The notes: generated by a model not told the origin, from the sequence alone. A stretch of DNA of 64,000 nt from Eledone cirrhosa (GCA_964016885.1 OZ024762.1:22196001-22260000); one strand, 5' to 3'. Shown: positions 1 to 55,734, numbered from the stretch's first letter. Program-made: numbers and translations.

Positions 1-552
1 TGTTTCTACTTTTAGCACAGGGCCAACAATTATCCCAGTGCATCACTGGTACTTTATTTTATCGACCCCGTAAGGATGAAAGGCAAAGTTAACCTTGGCG
101 GGATTTGAACTAAGATCATAAAGGCCCGTAACTCCGTGCTTAGCGTCCGACTCTTTAACGATACTGCCAATCCACCGCCCTTGGAGTTTCTACTTTTGGC
201 ACAAGGCCAGCGAATACCCCAGTGCATCACTGGTACTTTATTTTATCGACCCCGTAAGGATGAAAGGCAAAGTTAACCTCGGCGGGATTTGAACTAAGAT
301 CATAAAGGCCCGTAACTCCGTGCTTGGCGTCCGACTCTTTAACGATACTGCCAATCCACCGCCCTTGGAGTTTCTACTTTTGGCACAAGGCCAGCGATTA
401 CCCAGTGCATCACTGGTACTTTATTTTATCGACCTCGTAAGGATGAAAGGCAAAGTTAATCTCTGCAAGATTTGAACTCAGAACGCAAAGGGCCGCAACT
501 ATGCTGCAAAGCATGGTGTCTGACGCTCTACCGATTCTGCCAAACCACCGCC
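1..552 (-). mobile_element. Three tandem copies of tRNA-derived SINE family 1 (~1-179, 186-363, 370-552)
   Basis: The reverse complement shows an A box (TGGCAGTATCG..AG), a B box (GAGTTCAAATC, intact in copy 3), a central GCCTTTCATCCTTACGGGGTCGATAAAATAAAGTACCAG block resembling the Meta-type SINE domain (from memory), and the 3' end GGCCTTGTGCCAAAAGTAGAAAC. Period is ~184 bp. Confidence 0.85.
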
Positions 553-6537: not shown

Positions 6538-6948
6538 GTGGCTGCCAACTCGTTTTCGAGTACGGCCACTACTTTATATCCATGTAGGAAAAATCCTACC
6601 AATGCGCTGAACAAGTGTGACTTTTTAGTCCAGCCAGCGACTTGAAAACTCTGGTACAAAGACTACACTTGTGACAATTATTGACACATAGTGCTGGGCC
6701 CATGGTACTATGTGATGACAAGTGCAGAGAGATCTCCAGATATAAAGCAATGCCTGTGCCGTGAAGCTTTTATAGTGAGCAAAGGCACTGCACAAAGCCA
6801 GTCCCACTCTCTTAACCAAGATGATATTTACCAAAAAGAAGAACAAGTCAACATCATTGGATACCATCAGGGTTGCAGGTGTTATATCAGATTTTCTCCT
6901 TCTCCTAGAATTCTGCCTTGACAAAGGCTAAGGGGTCATCTGTCCCGG
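6538..6948 (-). mobile_element. 5'-truncated copy of an RTE-related non-autonomous element
   Basis: Near-identical to 8786-9196 and flanked by (TA)n. The minus strand contains a CTAGGAGAAGGA(G)AA motif that I recall from RTE-clade 5' UTRs. Confidence 0.6.
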
Positions 6949-10975: not shown

Positions 10976-11018
<43 letters not shown>

Positions 11019-11078
11019 TATATACATATATATACACACACATGTGTATAAGTACATTGATATACACACACACATATA

Positions 11079-11120
<42 letters not shown>
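9885..11120. repeat. (AC)/(AT)-derived degenerate minisatellite and microsatellite block
   Basis: Directly visible. Confidence 0.9.
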
Positions 11121-11123
<3 letters not shown>

Positions 11124-11302
11124 AATGATGTGCTCATGCGCAGAGATGCTATAAAGTAGCTTATGAAATAGGAAGACCTCTACTCGACCCCTATATCTCC
11201 CAGATATGGTGTTCGATATCTCATAGCGGCCTATGGCAACGTCTTTGTCCGTCTTTTAAGTATATTTATCCTATCTTATGAGCTATATTATAGCATCCCC
11301 GC

Positions 11303-11830
11303 CGAGTCCATAGTAAGGATCAAACCGCCAGACTCTTTCAAAAACGAAAGAGAGGCGGTTTTCCTCTGTACGGTGGCTATGGTGAAAGAAGTTATATGGT
11401 GGACGAGGTTGAGAGGACTGAGGACAGATGCCTTTCTCTCCGGACAACAATTGATTCCCTTCTTTAAGTATCACTTTAGAAGGAGAATCAGGGTGGAGAG
11501 AGAGGCACTGCACCCCAGTAAATTTACTGAAAGGTGGGTGAATGAAGCGAAAATGGCCCGAGTGATTGGGCCTTCTCTGTTTATAAGCCTGTAGGTTGAG
11601 GAAGAGAGCAAAAGGAAGAAAGGAGCACTTGCACAACACGCTCCTCGAGTTGAGGGTTGTTCTATCGACGGGGTATTAAACAACCCATTTGTGGCGCCTC
11701 CCCCCTATTGGGGATTTCGATTGTTGAAATTGTTTGTTTTTATATTTTTTACACGACTGTATGTAAAATCCCCGGCATGTCTTTGTATTGTCCCCTTTCT
11801 TGTTGCGCCCTTGTGGCTAATAAAGAAATC
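11303..11830 (+). mobile_element. 5'-truncated, diverged Tx1-type LINE (ORF2 C-terminus + 3' UTR) with a 19-bp TSD
   Basis: Translation VAMVKEVIWWTRLRGLRTDAFL...FTERWVNEAKMARVIGPSL aligns with the ORF2 end of the full LINEs. The 3' end is CCCTTGTGGCTAATAAAGAAATC. TATATTATAGCATCCCCGC is duplicated at 11284-11302 and 11831-11849. Confidence 0.9.
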
Positions 11831-11930
11831 TATATTATAGCATCCCCGCGTATGAGCACACCAGTCTTTATATTGTTTATCTTCTCTACCCTTCGTAAAA
11901 GTCCGAGAGATCGGCTCTAAATACACGATG

Positions 11931-11977
<47 letters not shown>

Positions 11978-11979
<2 letters not shown>

Positions 11980-12113
11980 CCAGAAATAGCCGTCGAAACG
12001 GCTTGAGCTCTGCCGTCGGGGTCAAACATTTTCATATTACCCACTCTACAACCCTAAGTATTGAGTACTCTGGTGCGTTATGGTTCATCTGGTTCCTTAC
12101 CACACTTCCTTCG

Positions 12114-12115
<2 letters not shown>
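11978..12115 (+). mobile_element. Family D short repeat copy
   Basis: Matches 3246-3386 and ends in (TA)n. Confidence 0.8.
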
Positions 12116-12184
<69 letters not shown>

Positions 12185-12185
<1 letters not shown>

Positions 12186-12325
12186 TATTGTTATACTTTG
12201 GGAGGGTCATGTTGCCAATAAGAAACACACGCACCAGTTGCTTTCACTTCAATTTATTATAATAACTAATAAATTTATAAATTTATAAATTTCTGGTTGG
12301 TTGGTTCCACAAATTCAGAAACGAA

Positions 12326-12326
<1 letters not shown>
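12185..12326 (-). mobile_element. Family A Penelope-like pLTR/tail fragment
   Basis: Inverse of 58938-59049 (AATAAATTGAAGTGAAAGCAACTGGTGCG...ATGACCCTCCCAAAGTATAACAAT) and lies between (TA)n tracts. Confidence 0.5.
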
Positions 12327-12373
<47 letters not shown>

Positions 12374-12380
<7 letters not shown>

Positions 12381-12426
12381 TGCCTCCTCGTTATCGAGTA
12401 TGGCCATTGCACGAGAAAAAAAAAAC
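12374..12426. repeat. Left arm of a ~50 bp inverted repeat (partner at 24668-24716)
   Basis: TGATGGCTGCCTCCTCGTTATCGAGTATGGCCATTGCACGAGAAAA is the reverse complement of 24668-24716. Confidence 0.9.
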
Positions 12427-12470
12427 ATAATAACAACAACAATAATAATAACGACAACAACAACAATAAT

Positions 12471-12625
12471 TGTTTCTACTTTTTACACAAGGCCAGCAAA
12501 TACCCAGTACATTACTGGTACTTTATTTTATCGACCCCCGTAATGGATGAAAGGCAAAATTAACCTCGACGGGATTTGAACTCAAACCGTAAAGGGACGT
12601 AACGCCGTGCTGCAAATTCACCGCC
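12471..12625 (-). mobile_element. SINE family 1 copy (head partly deleted)
   Basis: Family core on the minus strand, with its ATT/GTT tail at ~12427-12470. Confidence 0.85.
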
Positions 12626-12717
12626 AACAACAATAATAATATACATATATATATACACACACAGGCACACACATAAACATATATATATGTATATGTATAT
12701 TATTATTGTTGTTGTCG

Positions 12718-12960
12718 AGGGTGGTGGATTGGCAGTATCGGTAGAGGGTCGGACGCCATGCTTTCCAGCATAGTTACGTCTCTTTACGATCTGAGTTCAA
12801 ATCCCGCCGAGGTTGACTTTGCCTTTCATCCTTACGGGGTCGATAAAATAAAGTACCAGTAATGCACTGAGTAATTGCTGGCCTTGTGCCTAAAGTAGAA
12901 ACAATTATTGTTGTTGTCGTTATTATTATTGTTGTTATAATTATTATTATTATTATTATT
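12718..12960 (+). mobile_element. Full-length SINE family 1 copy with a (GTT/ATT)n tail that is the LINE insertion site
   Basis: A box TGGCAGTATCGGTAG, B box GAGTTCAAATCC, 3' end GGCCTTGTGCCTAAAGTAGAAACA, then ATT repeats running directly into the LINE 5' end. Confidence 0.9.
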
Positions 12961-13173
12961 GACGAAAGTGGATGTACGTTTTTTGAAGCTCCGTGAGTAA
13001 GCAATTTTTGAGGATTAATTGTAGAGAATTGTTTATTTTTTGTACCGCTGAAGCATTATAAGACATTAATTTGTATCCTGTGAAGGAATAACTCATAATA
13101 TTTGGGCCTTTTGGCCCAAATATTTGAACTTTATTTTGAAAAAAAAAAATAATAATTTTTTTCTCAAAAAAAC

Positions 13174-15084
13174 ATGGCGGAGCCACGCCCCCTAGAGGCG
13201 GGTCTGCTGTCGTGCAACGGCGACTTGAGCGTTGAGAGGAGAGGTGAGGCGAGGAGCGCCACCAGCACGAATGTGAGCAGCGACAGTGCCAGCACCAACG
13301 GGCCGAGCGGCGCGGAAGGTGGTAACAGCGACAACACCAACACCAACAAGCCGAACAGCGCAGAAGGTGGTAATAACGAGAGCACCAACAAAACGAACAG
13401 CACAGAGAGTAATAGTAGCGACAGCAGCAGCACCAACAAGGCCAACAGCACAGAAGGTAACCACGACACAGGGGAGAACAACAACAGCAATAGCAGCAGC
13501 AACACCAACAAGAACAACAACAGTGACAACACCAACAAGAACACTTTCGCTGCTGTGGCAGCGGCTAAAAGGAGACCATGCTACAGCATCGACTTAACCA
13601 ACAGAGAGGAAAAGTTGGCCCAGGCCTGGAAAATCATAAATCAAGAGCAGACCTGGGCAAACTTAACTGTCCCGGCAGAAGCCATTGAGGCAGTGGAAAA
13701 AAGAACGGTGCATTTCAGATGCATCTCAGTAGAGACAAAGAGGGCAGCGATAATCGCCCAAGCTGATATAGAAGCCGCACTGAAATACATCAGAGAGGAC
13801 ACAGACTTCATAGAGAGGGGCAGGCAATACGGCACCGTTTCGGTGCTGTTCAAGTCTGAAGCCCTCGCTGTGAAGCATTCAATGACCCCTTGCAAAACCA
13901 GCAAGGTCATAATGTACCCCTCCCACATGGGAAAACGAATAGCACGTGTGCGCATTCCCAGGATTCCACCAGGACTTGATATGTGGTGGCTCCTGGGTTG
14001 CGTAATCGTGGAAGGAACGGATACAGTCCCGGTAGAGGCAACGAGAACTGCCAGGGACGACTGGTCCGGGGTTGATCTGGAGATACTGCTCCAAATCAGA
14101 CCCGAAAACGTAAAAACAATCCCGGACCACATCCGCCTCCAAAACGGGAGGGTGTTGCATATAATGACTGAGGGCAAAAGGCCGCATTGTTTCCTTTGTG
14201 GGGAAACGACACACTTGCGAGCCTTCTGCCCTCAACTGCCGAAAAGCGCAAGGGGTCGAAAGATTCCACTGCTGGCGACGCCGGGACAAGGACCACCAGC
14301 AACACCGTCAACAATGGAACCACCAAAATTGCACACCCAGGGGGGAAACGAGGAAAGCTCTCCCATTCCCCCTCCCCTCAAAAATACACACACGAACAAG
14401 AACATAAACACTCACTCAGACACAAACACGCTCACAGCCACAGACCCCTCATCCTCCAGCAGTGAAGATGAGGGAAAACCAAAGTCCCCAAAAATACAAA
14501 AAACAAAACACAAAAAAAAAAGAAATCCACAAAGCACAAACACCCCCACAAAAAAAAATACACACACCACCCACACAAACATTTTCCCCACAGCATCACC
14601 AACACAACCACCAAAATCCCCCAAACGCAAACAAGCTAAACAGACACAAGAACAAATAGACACACAAACATCAGAAACTACAGACACCCCACCCACAACA
14701 AACGCAGACACAATAGAAACAACACTAACAAAGCTATCACCACCACAATCACACGAACAAATAAAACCCGAGCAACAAAACATTAAAAACTTCGTGCTTG
14801 CCAGAAGGGCCAACAAGGAATTGATGGCCCATGTAGCACGAAGCACAAACATCGAAAAAGACGGGGAAACATTTGAAGCGAGCACATTTCGCGTACCAGA
14901 TAATTTGCTTCTGATGCGAATGTCGCTCGCTTCATACAAAGAAATTCGAAAGAGCTTTCCTCGGGATGTGGGAACCCCGAACGTAAAACCCACGTCAAGA
15001 CTATTAAAGGGGTTCCCAAAAGAAACCCCACAAACCATGGAGGTCGAACCACCCGACCTTCACAAGACCCCGGAAGGTAAGTAA
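13174..15084 (+). CDS. LINE ORF1 protein (636 aa) with CCHC zinc knuckle
   Basis: Intact ORF. CFLCGETTHLRAFC fits C-X2-C-X4-H-X4-C. It has a Ser/Asn-rich N-terminus, the TFAAVAAA motif typical of Tx1/L1-like ORF1, and a Pro/Thr/Lys-rich linker. Confidence 0.9.
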   Translation: MAEPRPLEAGLLSCNGDLSVERRGEARSATSTNVSSDSASTNGPSGAEGGNSDNTNTNKPNSAEGGNNESTNKTNSTESNSSDSSSTNKANSTEGNHDTGENNNSNSSSNTNKNNNSDNTNKNTFAAVAAAKRRPCYSIDLTNREEKLAQAWKIINQEQTWANLTVPAEAIEAVEKRTVHFRCISVETKRAAIIAQADIEAALKYIREDTDFIERGRQYGTVSVLFKSEALAVKHSMTPCKTSKVIMYPSHMGKRIARVRIPRIPPGLDMWWLLGCVIVEGTDTVPVEATRTARDDWSGVDLEILLQIRPENVKTIPDHIRLQNGRVLHIMTEGKRPHCFLCGETTHLRAFCPQLPKSARGRKIPLLATPGQGPPATPSTMEPPKLHTQGGNEESSPIPPPLKNTHTNKNINTHSDTNTLTATDPSSSSSEDEGKPKSPKIQKTKHKKKRNPQSTNTPTKKNTHTTHTNIFPTASPTQPPKSPKRKQAKQTQEQIDTQTSETTDTPPTTNADTIETTLTKLSPPQSHEQIKPEQQNIKNFVLARRANKELMAHVARSTNIEKDGETFEASTFRVPDNLLLMRMSLASYKEIRKSFPRDVGTPNVKPTSRLLKGFPKETPQTMEVEPPDLHKTPEGK

Positions 15085-15113
15085 ACCTTTCCTCTCCCAT
15101 TCATCCTGCCAGC

Positions 15114-18100
15114 ATGGCCATAAGAGTAGGAAGTTTAAATGTTCGTGGCCTGGGGTCGCCCTGGAAGCAAGGTCACTTGCTCAACGACCTCAGGTCACTA
15201 GGAATAGATGTAATTGCCATCAGCGAGACCAGAATTTCCGACACACGCGCACTGGCGCCGATTTTCGACGATTATCAGATCTTTGCATCTGTTAGTCGGC
15301 CGGGAATGGGAGGTGGAGTGGCTGTGCTGTTTAGGAAATGTCTGGATCTCGAGGTAAGGTCAATCTTCCGGGATCCTGACGGAAAGTTGGTTGTCCTGGA
15401 CGTGAGCAATAGCGAAGGTGGTGCCTTTAGACTGGTGGCCGTCTACGCCCCTACTGGGGCCGGTCGGCCGGACTTCTTTAGGCGCCTGGAAAACTTTCTG
15501 CTTACGTCTCGCCCTTTACTGTTAATAGGGGATTGGAATGGCATCTTAGAAGCACGCTGGGATTGTGTGGGAGTATCTGATAGGAGCGGGGGGTGCAAAA
15601 GCCTCAAGTACCTGATCAGCCAGTTTCAACTGTCTGACAGGTACCGACTAGATTTCCCTAATGCGCCAGTATGGACCTGGACCAATCGCATAGGGTCATC
15701 TAGATCGTACATAGATAGGATTTTCATTAGGAAAAGAGATAGAAATAGTGTAGGATGTCCACATTTTAAAACGGTTGCCTATTCAGATCACAAGCTTGTG
15801 ATCTGTATGGTCGACCTAGATAAGACACGTAGGTTAGGACCTAGCTACTGGAAGCTAAACATGTCGTTTCCGGCACGTAAAGCTTACAGGGACCGGGTCA
15901 ACAACTTAGTTAAGCAAAAGTTGACAGGGGGGTTGTCAACAACAGGTGGTGGGGGGCACTCAAAAGAGAGATTAGAGCAACCTCGATAGGATTTAGCAAA
16001 GAAGTAGCAATAGAGAAAAATAGAAAAGAGGAGGGGCTGATAGCTAAGTTAGACGAGGCTATTTGTAGTGGCATTGCAACAGACGTGCTAGCGGCGAGAA
16101 TGGCACTAGACCATTTCTTCAATGCGAAACACGAAGGTTGCATTGTCAGAGCTAAGGCGCGTGCTCTGAGGAACGAGGGAACCAAAGCTGCCCGATGGGC
16201 TCGCTTTGCAGAGACGCAGCGTGGAAATAAAACCACAATTCGGTCTTTGACGGATCGAGATGGACACGAACTGAGCGATTCCAAGCAGATGTGTGAGGCC
16301 TTTCGCCAGCACTTTGCTCGATTGTTCGGGAGGATGGGTGAGTCGGAGATGGCGGCGGACTTCAGTCCCTACCTCGACGGCTTGCCACGCCTCTCGACGG
16401 CCGACGCTGAGCGCTGCGAAGAGCCGATAACATCAGCCGAAATTCAGGACGCCCTTGTCGGCTGCTCGAGTCGCAAGTCACCCGGTTTGGATGGTCTGCC
16501 CTACGAGCTTTACGTAAATATGCCAGACTTGTTCTCCGATCTCCTCGAAGCGCTCTACTGCAACTGGCAGCAGAACGGGAGCATTCCCAGTTCTGTGAGC
16601 CGTGGCGTAGTGACGCTGATAAGGAAAGACGAGAACAAGAGGGACACACTAGATAATTTCAGGCCCATAACCCTGCTCAACACAGAGTTTAAGATTTTGG
16701 CCAAGGTGTTAGCGAAAAGGTTGGCGCTTGTCGTCAAAGATTTGGTTGGGGAGGCGCAAACTTGCGCAATCCCGACCAGGTCCATACACGACAACCTCCA
16801 CCTCATGCGATACATCATAGAGAGGGTTGGGTGCAAACCTGGCTTCGGTGGGGCTCTGATCAATTTAGATCAATCGAAAGCATTCGATAGGGTCGACCAT
16901 CGGTACTTGGAGGCTGTACTCGAGGCGGCTGGCTTCGGCCCCGTCTTCAGAAGCTGGATCGCTGCAATGTACAGCGGCATCCGCTCGGTGGTCAAAGTTA
17001 ATGGCCACCTCTCGGAACCGTTTCAGATCTCTCGATCGGTCCGTCAAGGGTGCCCTCTCTCCTCACTTCTGTACGTATTGACTCTTGAGCCTCTACTGCG
17101 GAAGCTGGAGTTGTTGCAGGGCATCCCGCTCGAACCGGGACGTAGAAAGGCTGCGTCCGCTTATGCGGACGACATCACCGTGATGGTGTCGGACACCTCG
17201 GAAATCGAGGTGATCCGCACCCATTTGGAGGAATATGAAAGGTTGACGGGAGCAAAACTTAACCCGGAAAAGTCGGTGGGCTTGCAGCTCGGCACCTGGA
17301 GAGGCAAGTCCATGCCGTCCAACAGCGTCGTTGGGCGCTGGACAGACGGACCGGTAAAGTTGCTCGGGGTTTGGTTCGGACCAGACCTCCAGGTGGATAA
17401 GAATTGGGACGAGGTGACGAGCAGGATAGCCAACCTCACCCAGAAATGGGCTGAGAGAAAGCTATCACTGAAAGGGCGGGCGGAGGTGGCGAACGCGTAC
17501 ATCGCGTCCGTCATCTACTACCGCCTGACCGTCGTGCCTTGCCCCCGTCCACGCCTCGCCAATTTGGAACGGCTCCTTTTCAAATTTTTGTGGAGGGGAC
17601 GGGTCCCGTTGGTGAGGCGGTCCATCTGCTGCCAGCACCCTCTTCGTGGAGGGCTGGGCATGCCGTGGCTAATGATGCGCAGACATGCGCTGAGGCTGCG
17701 ACATCTCCAGATATTTTGCCTAAACGGTGAACAGGTGTGGTCGCCGTTTGTTAGACGGGCCTTTCCGCAGCTCATCTCTTTGACTGAGCTGCAGTCCTGG
17801 GTCAAGAAGAGACCGAGACTGGGCGACTGGCATCTGGAATGTTGCCAGGCGCTCACTGCACTCTGCAAGGTGGGCAATGCGGTCAGTGGAACTTCCACTC
17901 AAGATTTCTATAGAGGATTAGTGGAGGGCAAGTGCGATGACGTACTAGGAGAGGCTCTGGGCGTCAACGAAGTAGAACTGACCAGTATGTTCCGGAGGAC
18001 TTTCGAGCCGGGGACGATGGATAACTTCCAGAAATCCCTCGCTTGGCAGTGCTACCGGGGGGCGCTGCCGGTTCGGGATAAACTCTACAGGCACGGAAGT

Positions 18101-18532
18101 GCTGTCAGACGAACCTGCCCGAGATGCGCGCAGAGCGACGAAACCGTTCTGCACGCACTCGTCCAGTGTCCGTGCATTGCTGACTTGTGGGGTTATGTCG
18201 AACAGCTATTGTCGCGTGTAGAACGGATCCGGCTATCGTCCGAGTCCATAGTGAAGATTGACCCGCCGCCTTCTTTTGGTCAGGAAGGGCAGGCAATTTT
18301 CCTCTGCCTGGTGGCAGTAGCGAAAGAGGTTGCATGGTGGACCAGGTTGAAAGGACTGAAGACAGACACTTTTCTCTTCGGCCAATCCCTCATCAACTTC
18401 TTCAAGTTTCACTTGGAAAGGAAGGTGAGGGTGGAGAGAGAAGTGCTGCCCCCCAGTACATTTACTGAAAGGTGGGTGAATGTGGCGAGAATGGCCCGCG
18501 TGAGTGGGCCTACTCTGATCATGCGCCTGTAG
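15114..18532 (+). pseudogene. LINE ORF2 (APE endonuclease + reverse transcriptase + C-terminal zinc finger), interrupted by one frameshift at the G6 run 15927-15932
   Basis: APE motifs GSLNVRGL, SETR, VYAP, GDWN, YIDRIF, SDHK. RT motifs KSPGLDGL, FRPITLLN, DQSKAFDRV, RQGCPLS, AYADD. Zinc finger CPRC..ETVLHALVQC. A -1 shift at the G run joins 15114-15989 to 16085-18532 via VVNNRWWGALKREIR. Confidence 0.9.
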
Positions 18533-19012
18533 GCTGGTGAATTCGAGAAGGAGAGGGGTGCCCTTCCCGGGTGCCCTAGGAGCGTCGGGTGGCTCAGGAC
18601 TGGTGGGGTGCTTGAGTCAACCCTGGGTGGTGATCCCTCTTATTGGGGAACTTTCATTGTTGTATTTTTATTGTTATTTTGTTTTTTTGTTATTTATACT
18701 TACTCGATCTCTATGTAAACCCCCACTGTCCCTGTCTATTGTGTTGTCCCCTATATGTCGGCCCTTGTGGCCAATAAATGAAATCATTATTATTATTATT
18801 ATTGACGAAAGTGGATGTACGTTTTTTGAAGCTCCGTGAGTAAGCAATTTTTTGAGGATTAATTGTGGAGAATTGTTTATTTTTTGTACCGCTGAAGCAT
18901 TATAAGACATTCATTTGTACCCTGTGAAGGAATAACTCATAATATTTGGGCCTTTTGGCCCAAATATTTGAACTTTATTTTGGAAAAATAATAATTTTTT
19001 TCTCAAAAAAAC

Positions 19013-20903
19013 ATGGCGGAGCCACGCCCCCTAGAGGCGGGTCTGCTGTCGTGCAACGGTGACTTGAGCGTTGAGAGGAGAGGTGGGGCGAGGAGCGCCA
19101 CCAGCACGAGTGTGAGCAGCGACAGTGCCAGCACCAACGGGCCGAGCGGCGCGGAAGGTGGTAACAGCGACAACACCAACACCAACAAGCCGAACAGCGC
19201 AGAAGGTGGTAATAGCGAGAGCACCAACAAAACGAACAGCACAGAGAGTAATAGTAGCGACAGCAGCAGCACCAACAAGGCCAACAGCACAGAGGGTAAC
19301 CACGACACAGGGGAGAACAACAACAGCAATAGCAGCAGCAACACCAACAAGAACAACAACAGTGACAACACCAACAAGAACACCTTCGCTGCTGTGGCAG
19401 CGGCTAAAAGGAGACCATGCTACAGCATCGACTTAACCAACAGAGAGGAAAAGTTGGCCCAGGCCTGGAAAATCTTAAATCAAGAGCAGACCTGGGCAAA
19501 CTTAACTGTCCCGGCAGAAGCCATTGAGGCAGTGGAAAAAAGAACGGTGCATTTCAGATGCATCTCAGTAGAGACAAAGAGGGCAGCGATAATCGCCCAA
19601 GCTGATATAGAAGCCGCACTGAAATACATCAGAGAGGACACAGACTTCATAGAGAGGGGCAGGCAATACGGCACCGTTTCGGTGCTGTTCAAGACTGAAG
19701 CCCTCGCTGTGAAGCATTCAATGACCCCTTGCAAAACCAGCAAGGTCATAATGTACCCCTCCCACATGGGAAAACGAATAGCACGTGTGCGCATTCCCAG
19801 GATTCCACCAGGACTTGATATGTGGTGGCTCCTGGGTTGCGTAATCGTGGAAGGAACGGATACAGTCCCGGTAGAGGCAACGAGAACTGCCAGGGACGAC
19901 TGGTCCGGGGTTGATCTGGAGATACTGCTCCAAATCAGACCCGAAAACGTAAAAGCAATCCCGGACCACATCCGCCTCCAAAACGGGAGGGTGTTGCATA
20001 TAATGACTGAGGGCAAAAGGCCGCATTGTTTCCTTTGTGGGGAAACGACACACTTGCGAGCCTTCTGCCCTCAACTGCCGATTCCACTGCTGGCGACGCC
20101 GGGACAAGGACCACCAGCAACACCGTCAACAATGGAACCACCAAAATTGCACACCCAGGGGGGAAACGAGGAAAGCTCTCCCATTCCCCCTCCCCCCAAA
20201 AATACACACACGAACAAGAACATAAACACTCACTTAGACACAAACACGCTCACAGCCACAGACCCCTCATCCTCCAGCAGTGAAGATGAGGGAAAACCAA
20301 AGTCCCCCAAAATACAAAAAACAAAACACAAAAAAAAAAGAAATCCACAAAGCACAAACACCCCCACAAAAAAAAATACACACACCACCCACACAAACAC
20401 TTTCCCCACAGCATCACCAACACAACCACCAAAATCCCCCAAACGCAAACAAGCTAAACAGACACAAGAACAAATAGACACACAAACATCAGAAACTACA
20501 GACACCCCACCCACAACAAACGCAGACACAATAGAAACAACACTAACAAAGCTATCACCTCCACAATCACACGAACAAATAAAACCCGAGCAACAAAACA
20601 TTAAAAACTTCGTGCTTGCCAGAAGGGCCAACAAGGAATTGATGGCCCATGTAGCACGAAGCACAAACATCGAAAAAGAGGGGGGAAACATTTGAAGCGA
20701 GCACATTTCGCGTACCAGATAATTTGCTTCTGATGCGAATGTCGCTCGCTTCATACAAAGAAATTCGAAAGAGCTTTCCTCGGGATGTGGGAACCCCGAA
20801 CGTAAAACCCACTTCAAGACTATTAAAGGGGTTCCCAAAAGAAACCCCACAAACCATGGAGGTCGAACCACCCGACCTTCACAAGACCCCGGAAGGTAAG
20901 TAA
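19013..20903 (+). pseudogene. LINE ORF1 copy 2, frameshifted near 20680 (reads 560 aa, ends 20695)
   Basis: Lacks KSARGRK after the zinc knuckle. GAAAAAGAGGGGGGAAAC versus GAAAAAGACGGGGAAAC in copy 1 shifts the C-terminus. Confidence 0.85.
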
Positions 20904-20932
20904 ACCTTTCCTCTCCCATTCATCCTGCCAGC

Positions 20933-23900
20933 ATGGCCATAAGAGTAGGAAGTTTAAATGTTCGTGGCCTGGGGTCGCCCTGGAAGCAAGGTCACTTGCT
21001 CAACGACCTCAGGTCACTAGGAATGGATGTAATTGCCATCAGCGAGACCAGAATTTCCGACACACGCGCACTGGCGCCGATTTTCGACGATTATCAGATC
21101 TTTGCATCTGTTAGTCGGCCGGGAATGGGAGGTGGAGTGGCTGTGCTGTTTAGGAAATGTCTGGATCTCGAGGTAAGGTCAATCTTCCGGGATCCTGACG
21201 GAAAGTTGGTGGTCCTGGACGTGAGCAATAGCGAAGGTGGTGCCTTTAGACTGGTGGCCGTCTACGCCCCTACTGGGGCCGGTCGGCCGGACTTCTTTAG
21301 GCGCCTGGAAAACTTTCTGCTTACGTCTCGCCCTTTACTGTTAATAGGGGATTGGAATGGCATCTTAGAAGCACGCTGGGATTGTGTGGGAGTATCTGAT
21401 AGGAGCGGGGGGTGCAAAAGCCTCAAGTACCTGATCAGCCAGTTTCAACTGTCTGACAGGTACCGACTAGATTTCCCTAATGCGCCAGTATGGACCTGGA
21501 CCAATCGCATAGGGTCATCTAGATCGTACATAGATAGGATTTTCATTAGGAAAAGAGATAGAAATAGTGTAGGATGTCCACATTTTAAAACGGTTGCCTA
21601 TTCAGATCACAAGCTTGTGATCTGTATGGTCGACCTAGATAAGACACGTAGGTTAGGACCCAGCTACTGGAAGCTAAACATGTCGTTTCCGGCACGTAAA
21701 GCTTACAGGGACCGGGTCAACAACTTAGTTAAGCAAAAGTTAACAGGGGGGTTGTCAACAACAGGTGGTGGGGGGCACTCAAAAGAGAGATTAGAGCAAC
21801 CTCGATAGGATTTAGCAAAGAAGTAGCAATAGAGAAAAATAGAAAGGAGGAGGGGCTGATAGCTAAGTTAGACGAGGCTATTTGTAGTGGCATTGCAACA
21901 GACGTGCTAGCGGCGAGAATGGCACTAGACCATTTCTTCAATGCGAAACACGAAGGTTGCATTGTCAGAGCTAAGGCGCGTGCTCTGGGGAACGAGGGAA
22001 CCAAAGCTGCCCGATGGGCTCGCTTTGCAGAGACGCAGCGTGGAAATAAAACCACAATTCGGTCTTTGACGGATCGAGATGGACACGAACTGAGCGATTC
22101 CAAGCAGATGTGTGAGGCCTTTCGCCAGCACTTTGCTCGATTGTTCGGGAGGATGGGTGAGTCGGAGACGGCGGCGGACTTCAGTCCCTACCTCGACGGC
22201 TTGCCACGCCTCTCGACGGCCGACGCTGAGCGCTGCGAAGAGCCGATAACATCAGTCGAAATTCAGGACGCCCTTGTCGGCTGCTCGAGTCGCAAGTCAC
22301 CCGGTTTGGATGGTCTGCCCTACGAGCTTTACGTAAATATGCCAGACTTGTTCTCCGATCTCCTCGAAGCGCTCTACTGCAACTGGCAGCAGAACGGGAG
22401 CATTCCCAGTTCTGTGAGCCGTGGCGTAGTGACGCTGATAAGGAAAGACGAGAACAAGAGGGACACACTAGATAATTTCAGGCCCATAACCCTGCTCAAC
22501 ACAGAGTTTAAGATTTTGGCCAAGGTGTTAGCGAAAAGGTTGGCGCTTGTCGTCAAAGATTTGGTTGGGGAGGCGCAAACTTGCGCAATCCCGACCAGGT
22601 CCATACACGACAACCTCCACCTCATGCGATACATCATAGAGAGGGTTGGGTGCAAACCTGGCTTCGGTGGGGCTCTGATCAATTTAGATCAATCGAAAGC
22701 ATTCGATAGGGTCGACCATCGGTACTTGGAGGCTGTACTCGAGGCGGCTGGCTTCGGCCCCGTCTTCAGAAGCTGGATCGCTGCAATGTACAGCGGCATC
22801 CGCTCGGTGGTCAAAGTTAATGGCCACCTCTCGGAACCGTTTCAGATCTCTCGATCGGTCCGTCAAGGGTGCCCTCTCTCCTCACTTCTGTACGTATTGA
22901 CTCTTGAGCCTCTACTGCGGAAGCTGGAGTTGTTGCAGGGCATCCCGCTCGAACCGGGACGTAGAAAGGCTGCGTCCGCTTATGCGGACGACATCACCGT
23001 GATGGTGTCGGACACCTCGGAAATCGAGGTGATCCGCACCCATTTGGAGGAATATGAAAGGTTGACGGGAGCAAAACTTAACCCGGAAAAGTCGGTGGGC
23101 TTGCAGCTCGGCACCTGGAGAGGCAAGTCCATGCCGTCCAACAGCGTCGTTGGGCGCTGGACAGACGGACCGGTAAAGTTGCTCGGGGTTTGGTTCGGAC
23201 CAGACCTCCAGGTGGATAAGAATTGGGACGAGGTGACGAGCAGGATAGCCAACCTCACCCAGAAATGGGCTGAGAGAAAGCTATCACTGAAAGGGCGGGC
23301 GGAGGTGGCGAACGCGTACATCGCGTCCGTCATCTACTACCGCCTGACCGTCGTGCCTTGCCCCCGTCCACGCCTCGCCAATTTGGAACGGCTCCTTTTC
23401 AAATTTTTGTGGAGGGGACGGGTCCCGTTGGTGAGGCGGTCCATCTGCTGCCAGCACCCTCTTCGTGGAGGGCTGGGCATGCCGTGGCTAATGATGCGCA
23501 GACATGCGCTGAGGCTGCGACATCTCCAGATATTTTGCCTAAACGGTGAACAGGTGTGGTCGCCGTTTGTTAGACGGGCCTTTCCGCAGCTCATCTCTTT
23601 GACTGAGCTGCAGTCCTGGGTCAAGAAGAGACCGAGACTGGGCGACTGGCATCTGGAATGTTGCCAGGCGCTCACTGCACTCTGCAAGGTGGGCAATGCG
23701 GTCAGTGGAACTTCCACTCAAGATTTCTATAGAGGATTAGTGGAGGGCAAGTGCGATGACGTACTAGGAGAGGCTCTGGGCGTCAACGAAGTAGAACTGA
23801 CCAGTATGTTCCGGAGGACTTTCGAGCCGGGGACGATGGATAACTTCCAGAAATCCCTCGCTTGGCAGTGCTACCGGGGGGCGCTGCCGGTTCGGGATAA

Positions 23901-24351
23901 ACTCTACAGGCACGGAAGTGCTGTCAGACGAACCTGCCCGAGATGCGCGCAGAGCGACGAAACCGTTCTGCACGCACTCGTCCAGTGTCCGTGCATTGCT
24001 GACTTGTGGGGTTATGTCGAACAGCTATTGTCGCGTGTAGAACGGATCCGGCTATCGTTCGAGTCCATAGTGAAGATTGACCCGCCGCCTTCTTTTGGTC
24101 AGGAAGGGCAGGCAATTTTCCTCTGCCTGGTGGCAGTAGCGAAAGAGGTTGCATGGTGGACCAGGTTGAAAGGACTGAAGACAGACACTTTTCTCTTCGG
24201 CCAATCCCTCATCAACTTCTTCAAGTTTCACTTGGAAAGGAAGGTGAGGGTGGAGAGAGAAGTGCTGCCCCCCAGTACATTTACTGAAAGGTGGGTGAAT
24301 GTGGCGAGAATGGCCCGCGTGAGTGGGCCTACTCTGATCATGCGCCTGTAG
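20933..24351 (+). pseudogene. LINE ORF2 copy 2 (APE-RT-ZnF) with the same frameshift at G6 21746-21751
   Basis: Same motifs as copy 1. Split into 20933-21808 and 21904-24351 in the ORF track. Confidence 0.9.
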
Positions 24352-24635
24352 GCTGGTGAATTCGAGAAGGAGAGGGGTGCCCTTCCCGGGTGCCCTAGGA
24401 GCGTCGGGTGGCTCAGGACTGGTGGGGTGCTTGAGTCAACCCTGGGTGGTGATCCCTCTTATTGGGGAACTTTCATTGTTGTATTTTTATTGTTATTTTG
24501 TTTTTTTTGTTATTTATACTTACTCGATCTCTATGTAAACCCCCACTGTCCCTGTCTATTGTGTTGTCCCCTATATGTCGGCCCTTGTGGCCAATAAATG
24601 AAATCATTATTATTATTTTTGTTGTTATTAATGTA

Positions 24636-24667
<32 letters not shown>

Positions 24668-24668
<1 letters not shown>

Positions 24669-24715
24669 TTTTTTCTCGTGCAATGGCCATACTCGATAAC
24701 GAGGAGGCAGCCATC

Positions 24716-24716
<1 letters not shown>
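24668..24716. repeat. Right arm of the ~50 bp inverted repeat (partner 12374-12426)
   Basis: TTTTCTCGTGCAATGGCCATACTCGATAACGAGGAGGCAGCCATCA followed by (TA)n. Confidence 0.9.
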
Positions 24717-24770
<54 letters not shown>

Positions 24771-24874
24771 CATACATCAGCTAACGCCATCATTCCATAT
24801 ATATATATATCCTCTAGCTTAACCGATTCAAAAGAATGAAAGTCAATATGGTGTTAAGTCTTTATCTACCTCAG

Positions 24875-24948
24875 CAGCAGTAGTAGTAGTAGTAGTAGTG
24901 GTAGTGGTGGTGGTGGTGGTGGTGGTGGTAGTGGTGGTAGTAGTAGTA

Positions 24949-24980
<32 letters not shown>

Positions 24981-24986
24981 ATGTTG

Positions 24987-25042
<56 letters not shown>

Positions 25043-53950: not shown

Positions 53951-53992
53951 ATTCTAGTTGAAGCGGCTGCGATAGTGGTCCTTTTTTGTTGT

Positions 53993-54573
53993 CAGTATCG
54001 GTAGAGAGTCGGACACCATGCTTTGCAGCATAGAGTTGCGTTCCTTTACGGTCTGAGTTCAAATCCTGCCACGGTTAACTTTGCCTTTCATCCTTACTGG
54101 GTCGATATAATAAAGTACCAGTAATGCACTGGGATAATTGCTGGGCTTGTGCCAAAAGTAGAAACAATTATTATTTTTACTTGGAGGTGGATTGGCAGTA
54201 TCAGTAGAGGGTCGGACGCCATGCTTTGACGCAAAGAGTTACGTCTCTTTACGAGCTGAGTTCAAATCCCGCCGAGGTTAACTTTGCCTTTCATCCTTAC
54301 GGGGTCGATAAAATAAAGTACCAGTAATGCACTGGGATAATTGCTGGGCTTGTGCCAAAAGTAGAAACAATTATTATTTTTACTTGGAGGTGGATTGGCA
54401 GTATCAGTAGAGGGTCGGACGCCATGCTTTGACGCAAAGAGTTACGTCTCTTTACGAGCTGAGTTCAAATCCCGCCGAGGTTAACTTTGCCTTTCATCCT
54501 TACGGGGTCGATAAAATAAAGTACCAGTAATGCACTGAGATAATTGCTGGCCTTGTGTCAAAAGTAGAAACAA
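53993..54573 (+). mobile_element. Three tandem SINE family 1 copies (~53993-54167, 54183-54370, 54386-54573)
   Basis: Each is followed by ATTATTATTTTTACTTG. Copies 2 and 3 are almost identical (period 203 bp). Confidence 0.9.
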
Positions 54574-55734
54574 TTATTATTTTTACTTGTTTCAGTCAGT
54601 AGACTGTCTTCAAGCGGGAGCACTACCTTGATTTAGTTGATCACATCAAATCCAGTTCATATTTTTTTCAAATCTGGTTTTTATTTTATCAGTTTTGGTG
54701 GTGAGGATGTTAGTGGTGTTGTTGTTGGTGTTGGTGGTGTTTATTTACGGTGGTGTTGATGGTGGGGGTGATATTAGTGGTGTTGTTGTTGGTGTTGGTG
54801 GTGTTGATGGTTGTGATGACGGTGGAGGTGATATTAGTGGTGTTGGTGGTGTTTATTTACGGTGGTGTTGATGGTGGAGGTGATATTAGTGGTGTTGTTG
54901 GTGTTGGTGGTGTTGATGGTTGTGATGATGGTGGAGGTGATATTAGTGGTGGAGGTGATATTAGTGGTGTTGTTGTTGGTGTTGGTGGTGTTTATTTGCG
55001 GTGGTGTTGATGGTTGTGATGGTGGTGATGGTGATATTAGTGGTGGTGGTGTTGTTGGCGGTGTTTTGATGATATTGATGGTGTATTCATGGTTGCGACG
55101 ATGTTAGTGTGGAGGGGGGGGGGGGGGGTAACTGTTGTCATCGTGGTGTTTGTTCTTGGTGTGTTCGTGATGGCATCTGTATTGATGATGATGATGATGA
55201 TGATGGTGGTTGGTATTGAAATAGCAACGGCGGTGGCGACAGAAGATGGTGGTGTTTTTTGTATGTTATTTTTATAGCTGCGATATAGATGAGTGGTTTA
55301 GTTATGATGGCTGGGACGGTGGCGGTGGTGTCGTTGGTAGTGGTGGTGGTGGTGGTAGGGGGAGGGGGGTTTGTGGGGATTTGAGATCAGGGTGAGGACA
55401 GAGAACGCTTCTTCTTCTTTTTCTTCTCTTTTTTCTTCTTCTTTATTCTCAGTCAGGGTCTATAGTATTAGAGGCGGTAGTGGTGGTGTGGTGGGGTTAA
55501 GCTATGAGGTGGCGGTCCCTCGGGTACTAACTAATCAGTGAGGAAACAGTAATGAGAGATGGGAGTGAAGGGGATAGGATAGTGGTGGTGGTGGTGGTGG
55601 TGGGTAGGAGGAAGGTGTGGTAGAGGGGTGTAGGTGGTCAGGTTGGATGTCTTTGGAACGGAGATTGAAGAAAATGACAGAATTATCATAATTGCGTGTG
55701 AGCAATGGTGAGAAGGGAAGAACAAACCAAACAC

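What the first reader, a model, noticed from the sequence alone, without database searches (positions are those of the whole stretch)
12718..24617. (ATT)n-targeting Tx1-type LINE forming a head-to-tail array in its own and a SINE's tail
Seen: both full-length copies start at the same base (GACGAAAG) directly after (ATT)n and end in (ATT)n, not poly(A), despite an AATAAA. Copy 1 follows the ATT tail of a SINE and copy 2 follows the ATT tail of copy 1. Established: Tx1-clade LINEs often have sequence-specific APE endonucleases, including microsatellite-targeting families. Inference: this family targets (ATT)n, so every insertion regenerates its own target and can seed tandem arrays. A near-intact, repeat-specific integrating element would be of mechanistic interest.
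Basis: partly seen in the sequence, partly recalled or inferred. Interest (0 to 1): 0.8.

Follow-up and report, generated by a model that had tools for sequence, protein, structure and literature searches.

The report
Tandem LINE pair in ATT microsatellite
Two full-length, 99%-identical LINE retrotransposons sit head to tail in an ATT microsatellite of a likely octopus genome; the second copy likely re-used the first one's target duplication, as related elements do at non-ATT sites, so ATT targeting is possible but unproven.

Summary
The dimer is real: copies at 12961-18785 and 18804-24605 start at the same base after (ATT)7 and (ATT)6, end AATAAATGAAATC without poly(A), and are followed by (ATT)6 and (ATT)4. 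Both carry a frameshift in a G run that contigs of three public runs lack (likely an assembly slip). The copies differ at 29 sites; at three of them each copy's letter dominates a different organism's run, which favours two source lineages over local duplication.

ATT specificity is not shown. An older relative 1.1 kb upstream has no ATT tail and a 20-bp non-ATT target duplication. The sister lineage (animal DNA mis-binned in a bacterial genome) forms arrays of up to 12 units with nine unrelated non-ATT spacers, although eight types have endonucleases 90-96% identical. One complete dimer there has an 18-bp repeat before, between and after the units, the same layout as here. The second copy is therefore no independent test of ATT preference. 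Flanks of other copies could not be read. Best reading: an L1/Tx1-like LINE that stacks on its own target duplication, founder in an ATT run. The mechanism has precedent (R1); stacking at arbitrary sites is the interesting twist.

The parts
12961..18785 (+). LINE copy 1, full length (5' UTR, ORF1, ORF2, 3' UTR, AATAAA at 18773, no poly(A))
13174..15084 (+). ORF1 of copy 1, 636 aa, open; CCHC zinc knuckle at 14188-14229
   Evidence: no Pfam hit; look-alikes are CCHC / ZCCHC3-type RNA-binding clusters at 0.89-0.92 (lead only)
15114..15932 (+). ORF2 endonuclease (APE) part of copy 1; motifs SLNVRG, SET, GDWN, YIDR, SDH present; specificity hairpin of L1 length
   Evidence: PF03372 E 8.6e-16
15927..15932 (+). 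G6 run where the ORF2 frame shifts, same in copy 2 (21746-21751)
   Evidence: contigs of runs X1, X5, X6 carry one more G here
15914..18532 (+). ORF2 RT and C-terminal zinc part of copy 1 (872 aa open frame; YADD at 17162, CCHC at 18116)
   Evidence: PF00078 E 8.3e-30, PF13966 E 7.2e-9; best solved structure L1 ORF2p E 1e-47
18804..24605 (+). LINE copy 2, full length; 29 substitutions and 5 indels against copy 1; ORF1 frameshift at ~20680, 21-nt deletion at ~20080
12940..12960 (+). (ATT)7, 5' outer flank
18786..18803 (+). (ATT)6, 18-nt spacer between the copies; likely a target-site duplication
   Evidence: same length as the 18-nt repeat of the sister-lineage dimer
24606..24623 (+). 3' outer flank: (ATT)4 then TTTGTT (12-nt perfect, or 18-nt with 2 mismatches, against the spacer)
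12718..12903 (+). SINE upstream, with its own 16-nt duplication at 12702-12717 and 12904-12919
11303..11830 (+). Older 5'-truncated relative (76% identical), ends AATAAAGAAATC, no ATT tail, 20-nt non-ATT duplication at 11283-11302 and 11830-11849
12375..12422 (+). Left 48-nt inverted repeat, set in (AT)n
24668..24715 (-). Right 48-nt inverted repeat, identical to the left, set in (AT)n; the two enclose two inverted SINEs and the dimer

Best explanation
This is a head-to-tail pair of a young L1/Tx1-like LINE, likely made by two target-primed insertions: a founder likely landed in an ATT-rich microsatellite and duplicated 12-18 nt of it, and a copy from a likely different source then likely re-used that duplication. 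The ATT after each 3' end is then duplicated target, not an encoded tail (inferred). Stacking on its own duplication appears to be a trait of the wider lineage and does not need ATT (shown for the sister group). The family may have a loose liking for ATTAT/AT-rich sites, but strict (ATT)n specificity of its endonuclease is untested. The 3' halves were probably made alike later by recombination, or by a template switch during insertion (inferred). Shown: anatomy, differences between copies, the non-ATT relative, the sister arrays. Inferred: order and number of events, the cause of re-targeting, the strength of ATT preference.
For: Spacer is exactly 18 nt. The older relative in the window ends at the same AATAAA-GAAATC, has no tail and has a 20-nt non-ATT duplication. 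The window RT groups with 4 octopod-type proteins (100/100) and then with a 15-row sister group (20 rows, 100/100). That sister group includes 58 near-complete RT matches (of 78 matches) on 16 contigs of G001, in same-strand arrays of up to 12 units. It has nine spacer types, and eight of them belong to elements whose endonucleases are 89.8-96.2% identical between types. Only 2 of 71 junction reads have ATTATT within 30 nt (overlapping loci count more than once). G001:C17 is a complete dimer between unique flanks with an 18-nt non-ATT repeat before, between and after the units. Different sources: at 13271, 14862 and 14994 copy 2's letter dominates run X5 while copy 1's letter dominates run X1. 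Precedent: R1 tandems arise by insertion into the duplication at the 5' end of an earlier copy (PMC2718515, passages); dimers by double insertion are common (PMC5932611, passages).
Against: The founder did hit the only (ATT)>=4 run of the window; chance per site is about 1e-4 for (ATT)3, which favours a real ATT preference. ATT is periodic, so tail and duplication cannot be told apart here. In G001, 3 of 4 readable 5' outer boundaries (C3, C4, C19) do not carry the array's spacer; only C17 does, so the spacer can also travel as part of the element's 3' end. The two copies share a frameshift and are almost identical over the last 2.35 kb (1 of 29 substitutions in 40% of the length, P = 6.5e-6), which simple independent insertion does not explain. 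Only 7 of the 29 differences were visible in the read table (40 of 950 rows shown). The sister lineage is only 41-42% identical in RT and comes from one bin, which may be enriched for arrays.
Confidence: 0.5

Rival explanations
1. The subfamily is a true (ATT)n-targeting element, like Kibi and Koshi for (TC)n and (TTC)n: its endonuclease nicks (AAT)n, so every insertion regenerates a target.
For: All three junctions are ATT runs, the only such runs in 64 kb. Copies look to come from two sources. Microsatellite-targeting Tx1 families exist (PMC4494074, passages and section 15). The older relative's site begins TATATTAT and five SINE loci end in AATTAT, hinting at an ATTAT bias in this genome.
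Against: One locus only. The relative's duplication is not ATT. The sister lineage gives the same layout without ATT. The specificity hairpin is of L1 length, two residues shorter than the Tx1L loop; weak evidence, since loop grafts do not transfer specificity simply (PMC1950540, passages).
Confidence: 0.25
2. One insertion event: the RT finished one RNA and jumped to the 3' end of a second RNA that carried an (AUU)n tail picked up by read-through, giving a direct head-to-tail join; only the outer ends hold a duplication (12 nt).
For: Join is exactly at the first base of copy 2. In G001 the spacer recurs at 3' outer ends (C9, C17, C5) but is absent at 3 of 4 5' outer ends, as expected if it rides on the RNA; arrays mix sub-variants and 5'-truncated units. 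R2 proteins template-jump and give head-to-tail products (PMC11371274, passages).
Against: C17 has the 18-mer at the 5' outer end too. The older relative in the window has no carried tail. Two full 5.8 kb templates in one event is demanding (inference).
Confidence: 0.13
3. Local duplication by unequal crossing-over between the ATT runs of one copy, or an assembly artefact.
For: Shared frameshift in both copies; near-identity of the last 2.35 kb; two identical truncated units side by side in G001:C9 show that recombinational duplication occurs in this lineage; no listed contig piece spans the laid stretch.
Against: 29 substitutions and 5 indels including a 21-nt deletion; at three sites both letters are dominant states in other organisms, and the T insertion at 13004 also occurs in X1 and X5. 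The copies differ 4 nt before the frameshifted G run, so it is not inside a converted tract. Both frameshifts lie in G runs, as homopolymer slips of an assembly would (inference). Flanking DNA is not duplicated.
Confidence: 0.12

Closest known systems
Kibi, Koshi and crocodilian Tx1 families (PMC4494074, PMC3812793; passages)
   Same: Two-ORF APE-RT elements of the L1/Tx1 group found in microsatellites.
   Different: Their targets are (TC)n, (TTC)n, (TTCC)n/(TTTC)n and rest on many copies; here ATT rests on one locus. The window RT does not group with the fish Tx1-named proteins (37-40% identity in the RT core, relation unresolved).
R1 tandem arrays in Drosophila rDNA (PMC2718515, PMC5932611; passages)
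   Same: Full-length copies separated by one target duplication; new copies enter the duplication beside an old copy; arrays then grow by unequal exchange.
   Different: R1 has one fixed 28S target set by its endonuclease; the sister lineage here stacks at nine unrelated spacers, eight types with endonucleases 90-96% alike.
Dong (TAA-microsatellite targeting; PMC3812793, passages; young Dong-R4 families in Octopus vulgaris, PMC13282606, passages)
   Same: Same repeat class as target, and present in octopus.
   Different: Dong is an R4-clade element with a restriction-like endonuclease (clade from PMC13282606 label and PMC4640811; enzyme assignment for Dong itself recalled); this element has an APE domain.
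Unnamed array-forming sister lineage in G001 (record CAXXMW01, filed as Arenicella) and ENA proteins P0005-P0038
   Same: Sister group 100/100; ends at AATAAA without poly(A); 18-nt-spaced dimer whose units differ at the 5' end and match at the 3' end.
   Different: 41-44% RT identity, longer 3' UTR, longer hairpin loop, no ATT spacers, unidentified animal host.

Membership tests
L1 group of non-LTR retrotransposons | ORF2 with APE endonuclease, RT and C-terminal zinc motif | tested here: met
   PF03372, PF00078, PF13966; motifs
L1 group of non-LTR retrotransposons | RT closer to L1 than to R2-type | tested here: met
   L1 ORF2p E 1e-47 against R2 E 2e-22 among solved structures; RTE and CR1 references were not in that hit list
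Tx1 clade | RT groups with reference Tx1 elements in a tree | tested here: inconclusive
   65-row tree: fish proteins named 'Transposon TX1' form their own clade (100/99); the window's 20-row clade (100/100) is not resolved as their sister; no Repbase references or human L1 in the tree
Tx1 clade | ORF1 with CCHC zinc knuckle; 3' end without poly(A) (both recalled as common Tx1 traits) | tested here: met
   CFLCGETTHLRAFC at 14188-14229
Microsatellite-specific Tx1 family (Kibi/Koshi type) | More than 20% of copies flanked by one repeat type (criterion in PMC4494074) | not testable with these tools
   No genome; read tool skipped 12860-12968 and 18776-18860; no close relatives with flanks. Readable: 1 ATT locus, 1 older non-ATT relative
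Microsatellite-specific Tx1 family (Kibi/Koshi type) | Endonuclease prefers the repeat in vitro | not testable with these tools
   bench assay needed
Tx1L-like specific endonuclease | Extended beta-hairpin loop as in Tx1L | tested here: not met
   Loop aligns to L1 without a gap and needs a 2-residue gap against the Tx1L graft 2v0r
R1-type duplication-spaced tandem | Spacer equals the duplication found at both outer ends | tested here: inconclusive
   Window: 18/18 with 5' flank, 16/18 with 3' flank, but periodic. Sister lineage: met in C17, not met at the 5' ends of C3, C4, C19

The most novel reading that the evidence does not exclude
This lineage homes on its own footprint: with no poly(A), its RNA reads about 18 nt into the downstream flank, and that extension pairs with the identical duplication beside the parent copy or with any look-alike site. 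Target choice would be set by RNA rather than by the endonuclease, each founder would seed its own array, and a founder that fell into (ATT)n would turn into a genome-wide ATT-targeting family with no protein change. That would be an APE-type LINE with an RNA-addressable target, and a route by which microsatellite-specific families are born.
Probability: 0.15. Interest if true: 0.75.

Novelty: new variant of a known kind. Interest (0 to 1): 0.42.

Why it matters
If only a duplication-spaced dimer, it is an ordinary though well-preserved example of how LINEs start satellite arrays. If the subfamily truly targets (ATT)n, it adds one more microsatellite to the known Tx1-type targets and gives a young, probably intact endonuclease to assay. 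If the lineage re-targets its own duplication at arbitrary sites, it would bear on how target specificity arises in APE retrotransposons and on RNA-guided insertion. The array-filled contigs also show animal DNA inside a GTDB species genome.

Tried and rejected
Flanks of other copies: no genome; the read tool skipped both ends as repeats; a 3'-end motif found 0 matches in metagenomes and 5 in viral contigs, which I took as chance and did not read; protein scans gave no close octopod loci (best 43% in metagenomes; none in viral contigs). No RNA holder listed. RNA editing: 10-11 A>G against 1 G>A from copy 1 to copy 2 suggested A-to-I editing, but at 13376 and 16027 G is the family letter in DNA-type runs and at 13271 both letters are dominant in different organisms, so rejected. 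About 5,600 loose read ends at 17582-17583 looked like a shared truncation point with AT-rich flanks, but they sit on an AATT site 75 nt from the GCATGC site where reads begin, so they are a library effect. Selection between copies: 10 silent and 14 amino-acid changes among the 24 coding substitutions classified, uninformative. Rfam: nothing at gathering score in 11000-25000. Telomeric repeats were not seen beside the G001 arrays in 14 fetched stretches. Earlier findings of the scan: four look-ups, nothing. Depth ratios were not used as copy numbers.

Full report
Observation. The window holds two full-length copies, 12961-18785 and 18804-24605, 99.0% identical with 29 substitutions and 5 indels. 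Both begin GACGAAAG after an ATT run and end AATAAATGAAATC without poly(A); the runs are (ATT)7, (ATT)6 and (ATT)4, the only pure runs of four or more units in 64 kb. Outside the element 12 of 104,568 strand-positions start (ATT)3 and none (ATT)4. The upstream SINE (12718-12903) has its own 16-nt duplication (12702-12717, 12904-12919), so copy 1 lies in the neighbouring TTA/TTG microsatellite, not in the SINE tail proper.

What the element is. ORF1 (636 aa) has a CCHC knuckle; ORF2 has APE, RT and zinc domains. The best solved relative is L1 ORF2p (E 1e-47; R2 2e-22). The closest named protein is from Argonauta hians (67%), with unnamed ones at 78-83%, so the host is likely an octopod (inference). 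In a 65-row RT tree the window groups with four such proteins (100/100) and then with a 15-row sister group (100/100); fish proteins named 'Transposon TX1' form a separate clade whose relation is unresolved (rows under 200 or 250 aligned residues were dropped, among them P0004, and 33 of 126 protein-matched loci were offered). Tx1 membership is thus plausible, not proven. One fish row (BAC82605.1) is, from recall, an element of Kojima and Fujiwara 2004; I did not check which.

Intactness. Both copies shift frame in a G6 run between APE and RT. Contigs of X1, X5 and X6 carry one more G there; in X1 that contig's depth (1,762) matches the depth of the near-identical family contigs (1,760-2,007). 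Copy 2's ORF1 frameshift is also in a G run. Homopolymer slips of the assembly are the simplest cause (inference); real slippage is not excluded.

One event or two. Of the 29 differences, 7 were among the 40 rows shown (910 hidden). At 13271, 14862 and 14994 copy 2's letter dominates X5 and copy 1's letter dominates X1; at 13376, 14378, 15392 and 16027 copy 2's letter dominates both. Letters that are standing states elsewhere favour two source lineages over a local duplication. Yet only 1 of 29 substitutions lies in the last 40% (P = 6.5e-6), so the 3' halves were made alike by recombination, a template switch or polishing. No listed piece spans the stretch, so the dimer lacks independent read support.

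Is ATT the target? I could not read other copies' flanks. Two lines of evidence lower the claim. First, a 5'-truncated relative 1.1 kb upstream (76% identical) ends at the same AATAAA-GAAATC with no tail and has a perfect 20-nt non-ATT duplication, though it begins TATATTAT. Units end at AATAAA and are joined by short spacers of nine unrelated types; eight types belong to elements with endonucleases 89.8-96.2% identical. ATTATT occurs within 30 nt in 2 of 71 junction reads. Contig C17 is a complete dimer between unique flanks with an 18-nt repeat before, between and after the units (1-3 mismatches); its units differ at 312 sites in the first 2.5 kb and 8 in the last 3.9 kb, the same 5'-different, 3'-alike pattern as the window. 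The window's spacer is also 18 nt. So this layout needs no microsatellite, and the evidence for ATT preference shrinks to one founder. Against my reading: that founder hit a rare site; five SINE loci in the window also end in AATTAT; and three of four readable 5' outer ends in G001 lack the spacer, so it can travel with the element. The bin may also be enriched for arrays.

Mechanism. Most likely a founder inserted into the ATT-rich tract and duplicated 12-18 nt, and a second copy entered the duplication at the founder's edge, as R1 does (PMC2718515) and as many dimers do (PMC5932611). Why a family without one fixed target re-hits its own footprint is open: loose endonuclease preference, pairing of read-through RNA, template jumping (PMC11371274) or recombination. 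The specificity hairpin is of L1 length, shorter than Tx1L's (PMC1950540), a weak sign. I put about 0.5 on this reading with at most loose ATT preference, 0.25 on strict ATT targeting, 0.13 on a single template-jump event, 0.12 on duplication or artefact.

Against what is known. Tx1 families on (TC)n, (TTC)n, (TTCC)n/(TTTC)n are described (PMC4494074), TAA repeats are targeted by Dong (PMC3812793), and young L1-Tx1 and Dong-R4 families are listed for Octopus vulgaris (PMC13282606). Ten searches showed no report of an ATT-targeting Tx1 in cephalopods or of these arrays; Repbase, Dfam and most subscription papers are not covered. I saw passages of PMC4494074 (also section 15), PMC13282606, PMC3747384, PMC4758252, PMC5932611, PMC10088271, PMC4640811, PMC2718515, PMC1950540, PMC11371274 and PMC3812793; only the listing of PMC5907723; nothing of Kojima and Fujiwara 2004. 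The figure and supplements of PMC4494074, which list Tx1 targets, could not be read and may include an ATT-type family.

Verdict. A real, young tandem LINE pair; a new variant of a known kind. ATT targeting is an open, testable possibility, not a result. Interest 0.42; the bold case of RNA-guided self-stacking has probability about 0.15 and would merit 0.75.

Noticed in passing
window 12375-24715: Identical 48-nt inverted repeats in (AT)n enclose two inverted SINEs (86-90% alike, same TTA/TTG context) and the dimer: a MITE-like or fold-back element. Some Tx1 families target DNA transposons, so this host element could matter. Related 30-nt motifs lie at 6539 and 8788.
   Followed up: partly
   Followed up: yes
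window 12860-12903, 2495-2560 and 18760-18785; L106 3' end: The SINE 3' end (GGCCTTGTGCC motif) resembles the 3' ends of the older relative (1-4 of 1000 shuffles reach the score) and of the G001 elements (0-19 of 1000); weaker for the dimer itself (2-48 of 1000). The SINE may be mobilised by this lineage.
   Followed up: partly
window 53989-54591: Three SINE copies head to tail, each followed by the same ATT-rich 17-18 nt; the first is 5'-truncated and lacks it upstream.
   Followed up: partly
window 2-552: A second SINE tandem, period 184, without the ATT tail.
   Followed up: no
L086-L125 3' ends: G001 elements have a stem-loop just before AATAAA whose stem sequence varies between families while staying complementary (read by eye; one folded).
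   Followed up: partly
window 12961-24605 and G001:C17: Neighbouring units differ at the 5' end and match at the 3' end in both animals; unexplained.
   Followed up: partly
window 13061-15070: Depth over the 5' part is very different between runs (near-identical contigs at about 1,900 in X1, about 10 in X6), hinting at recent amplification of full-length copies in some species.
   Followed up: no
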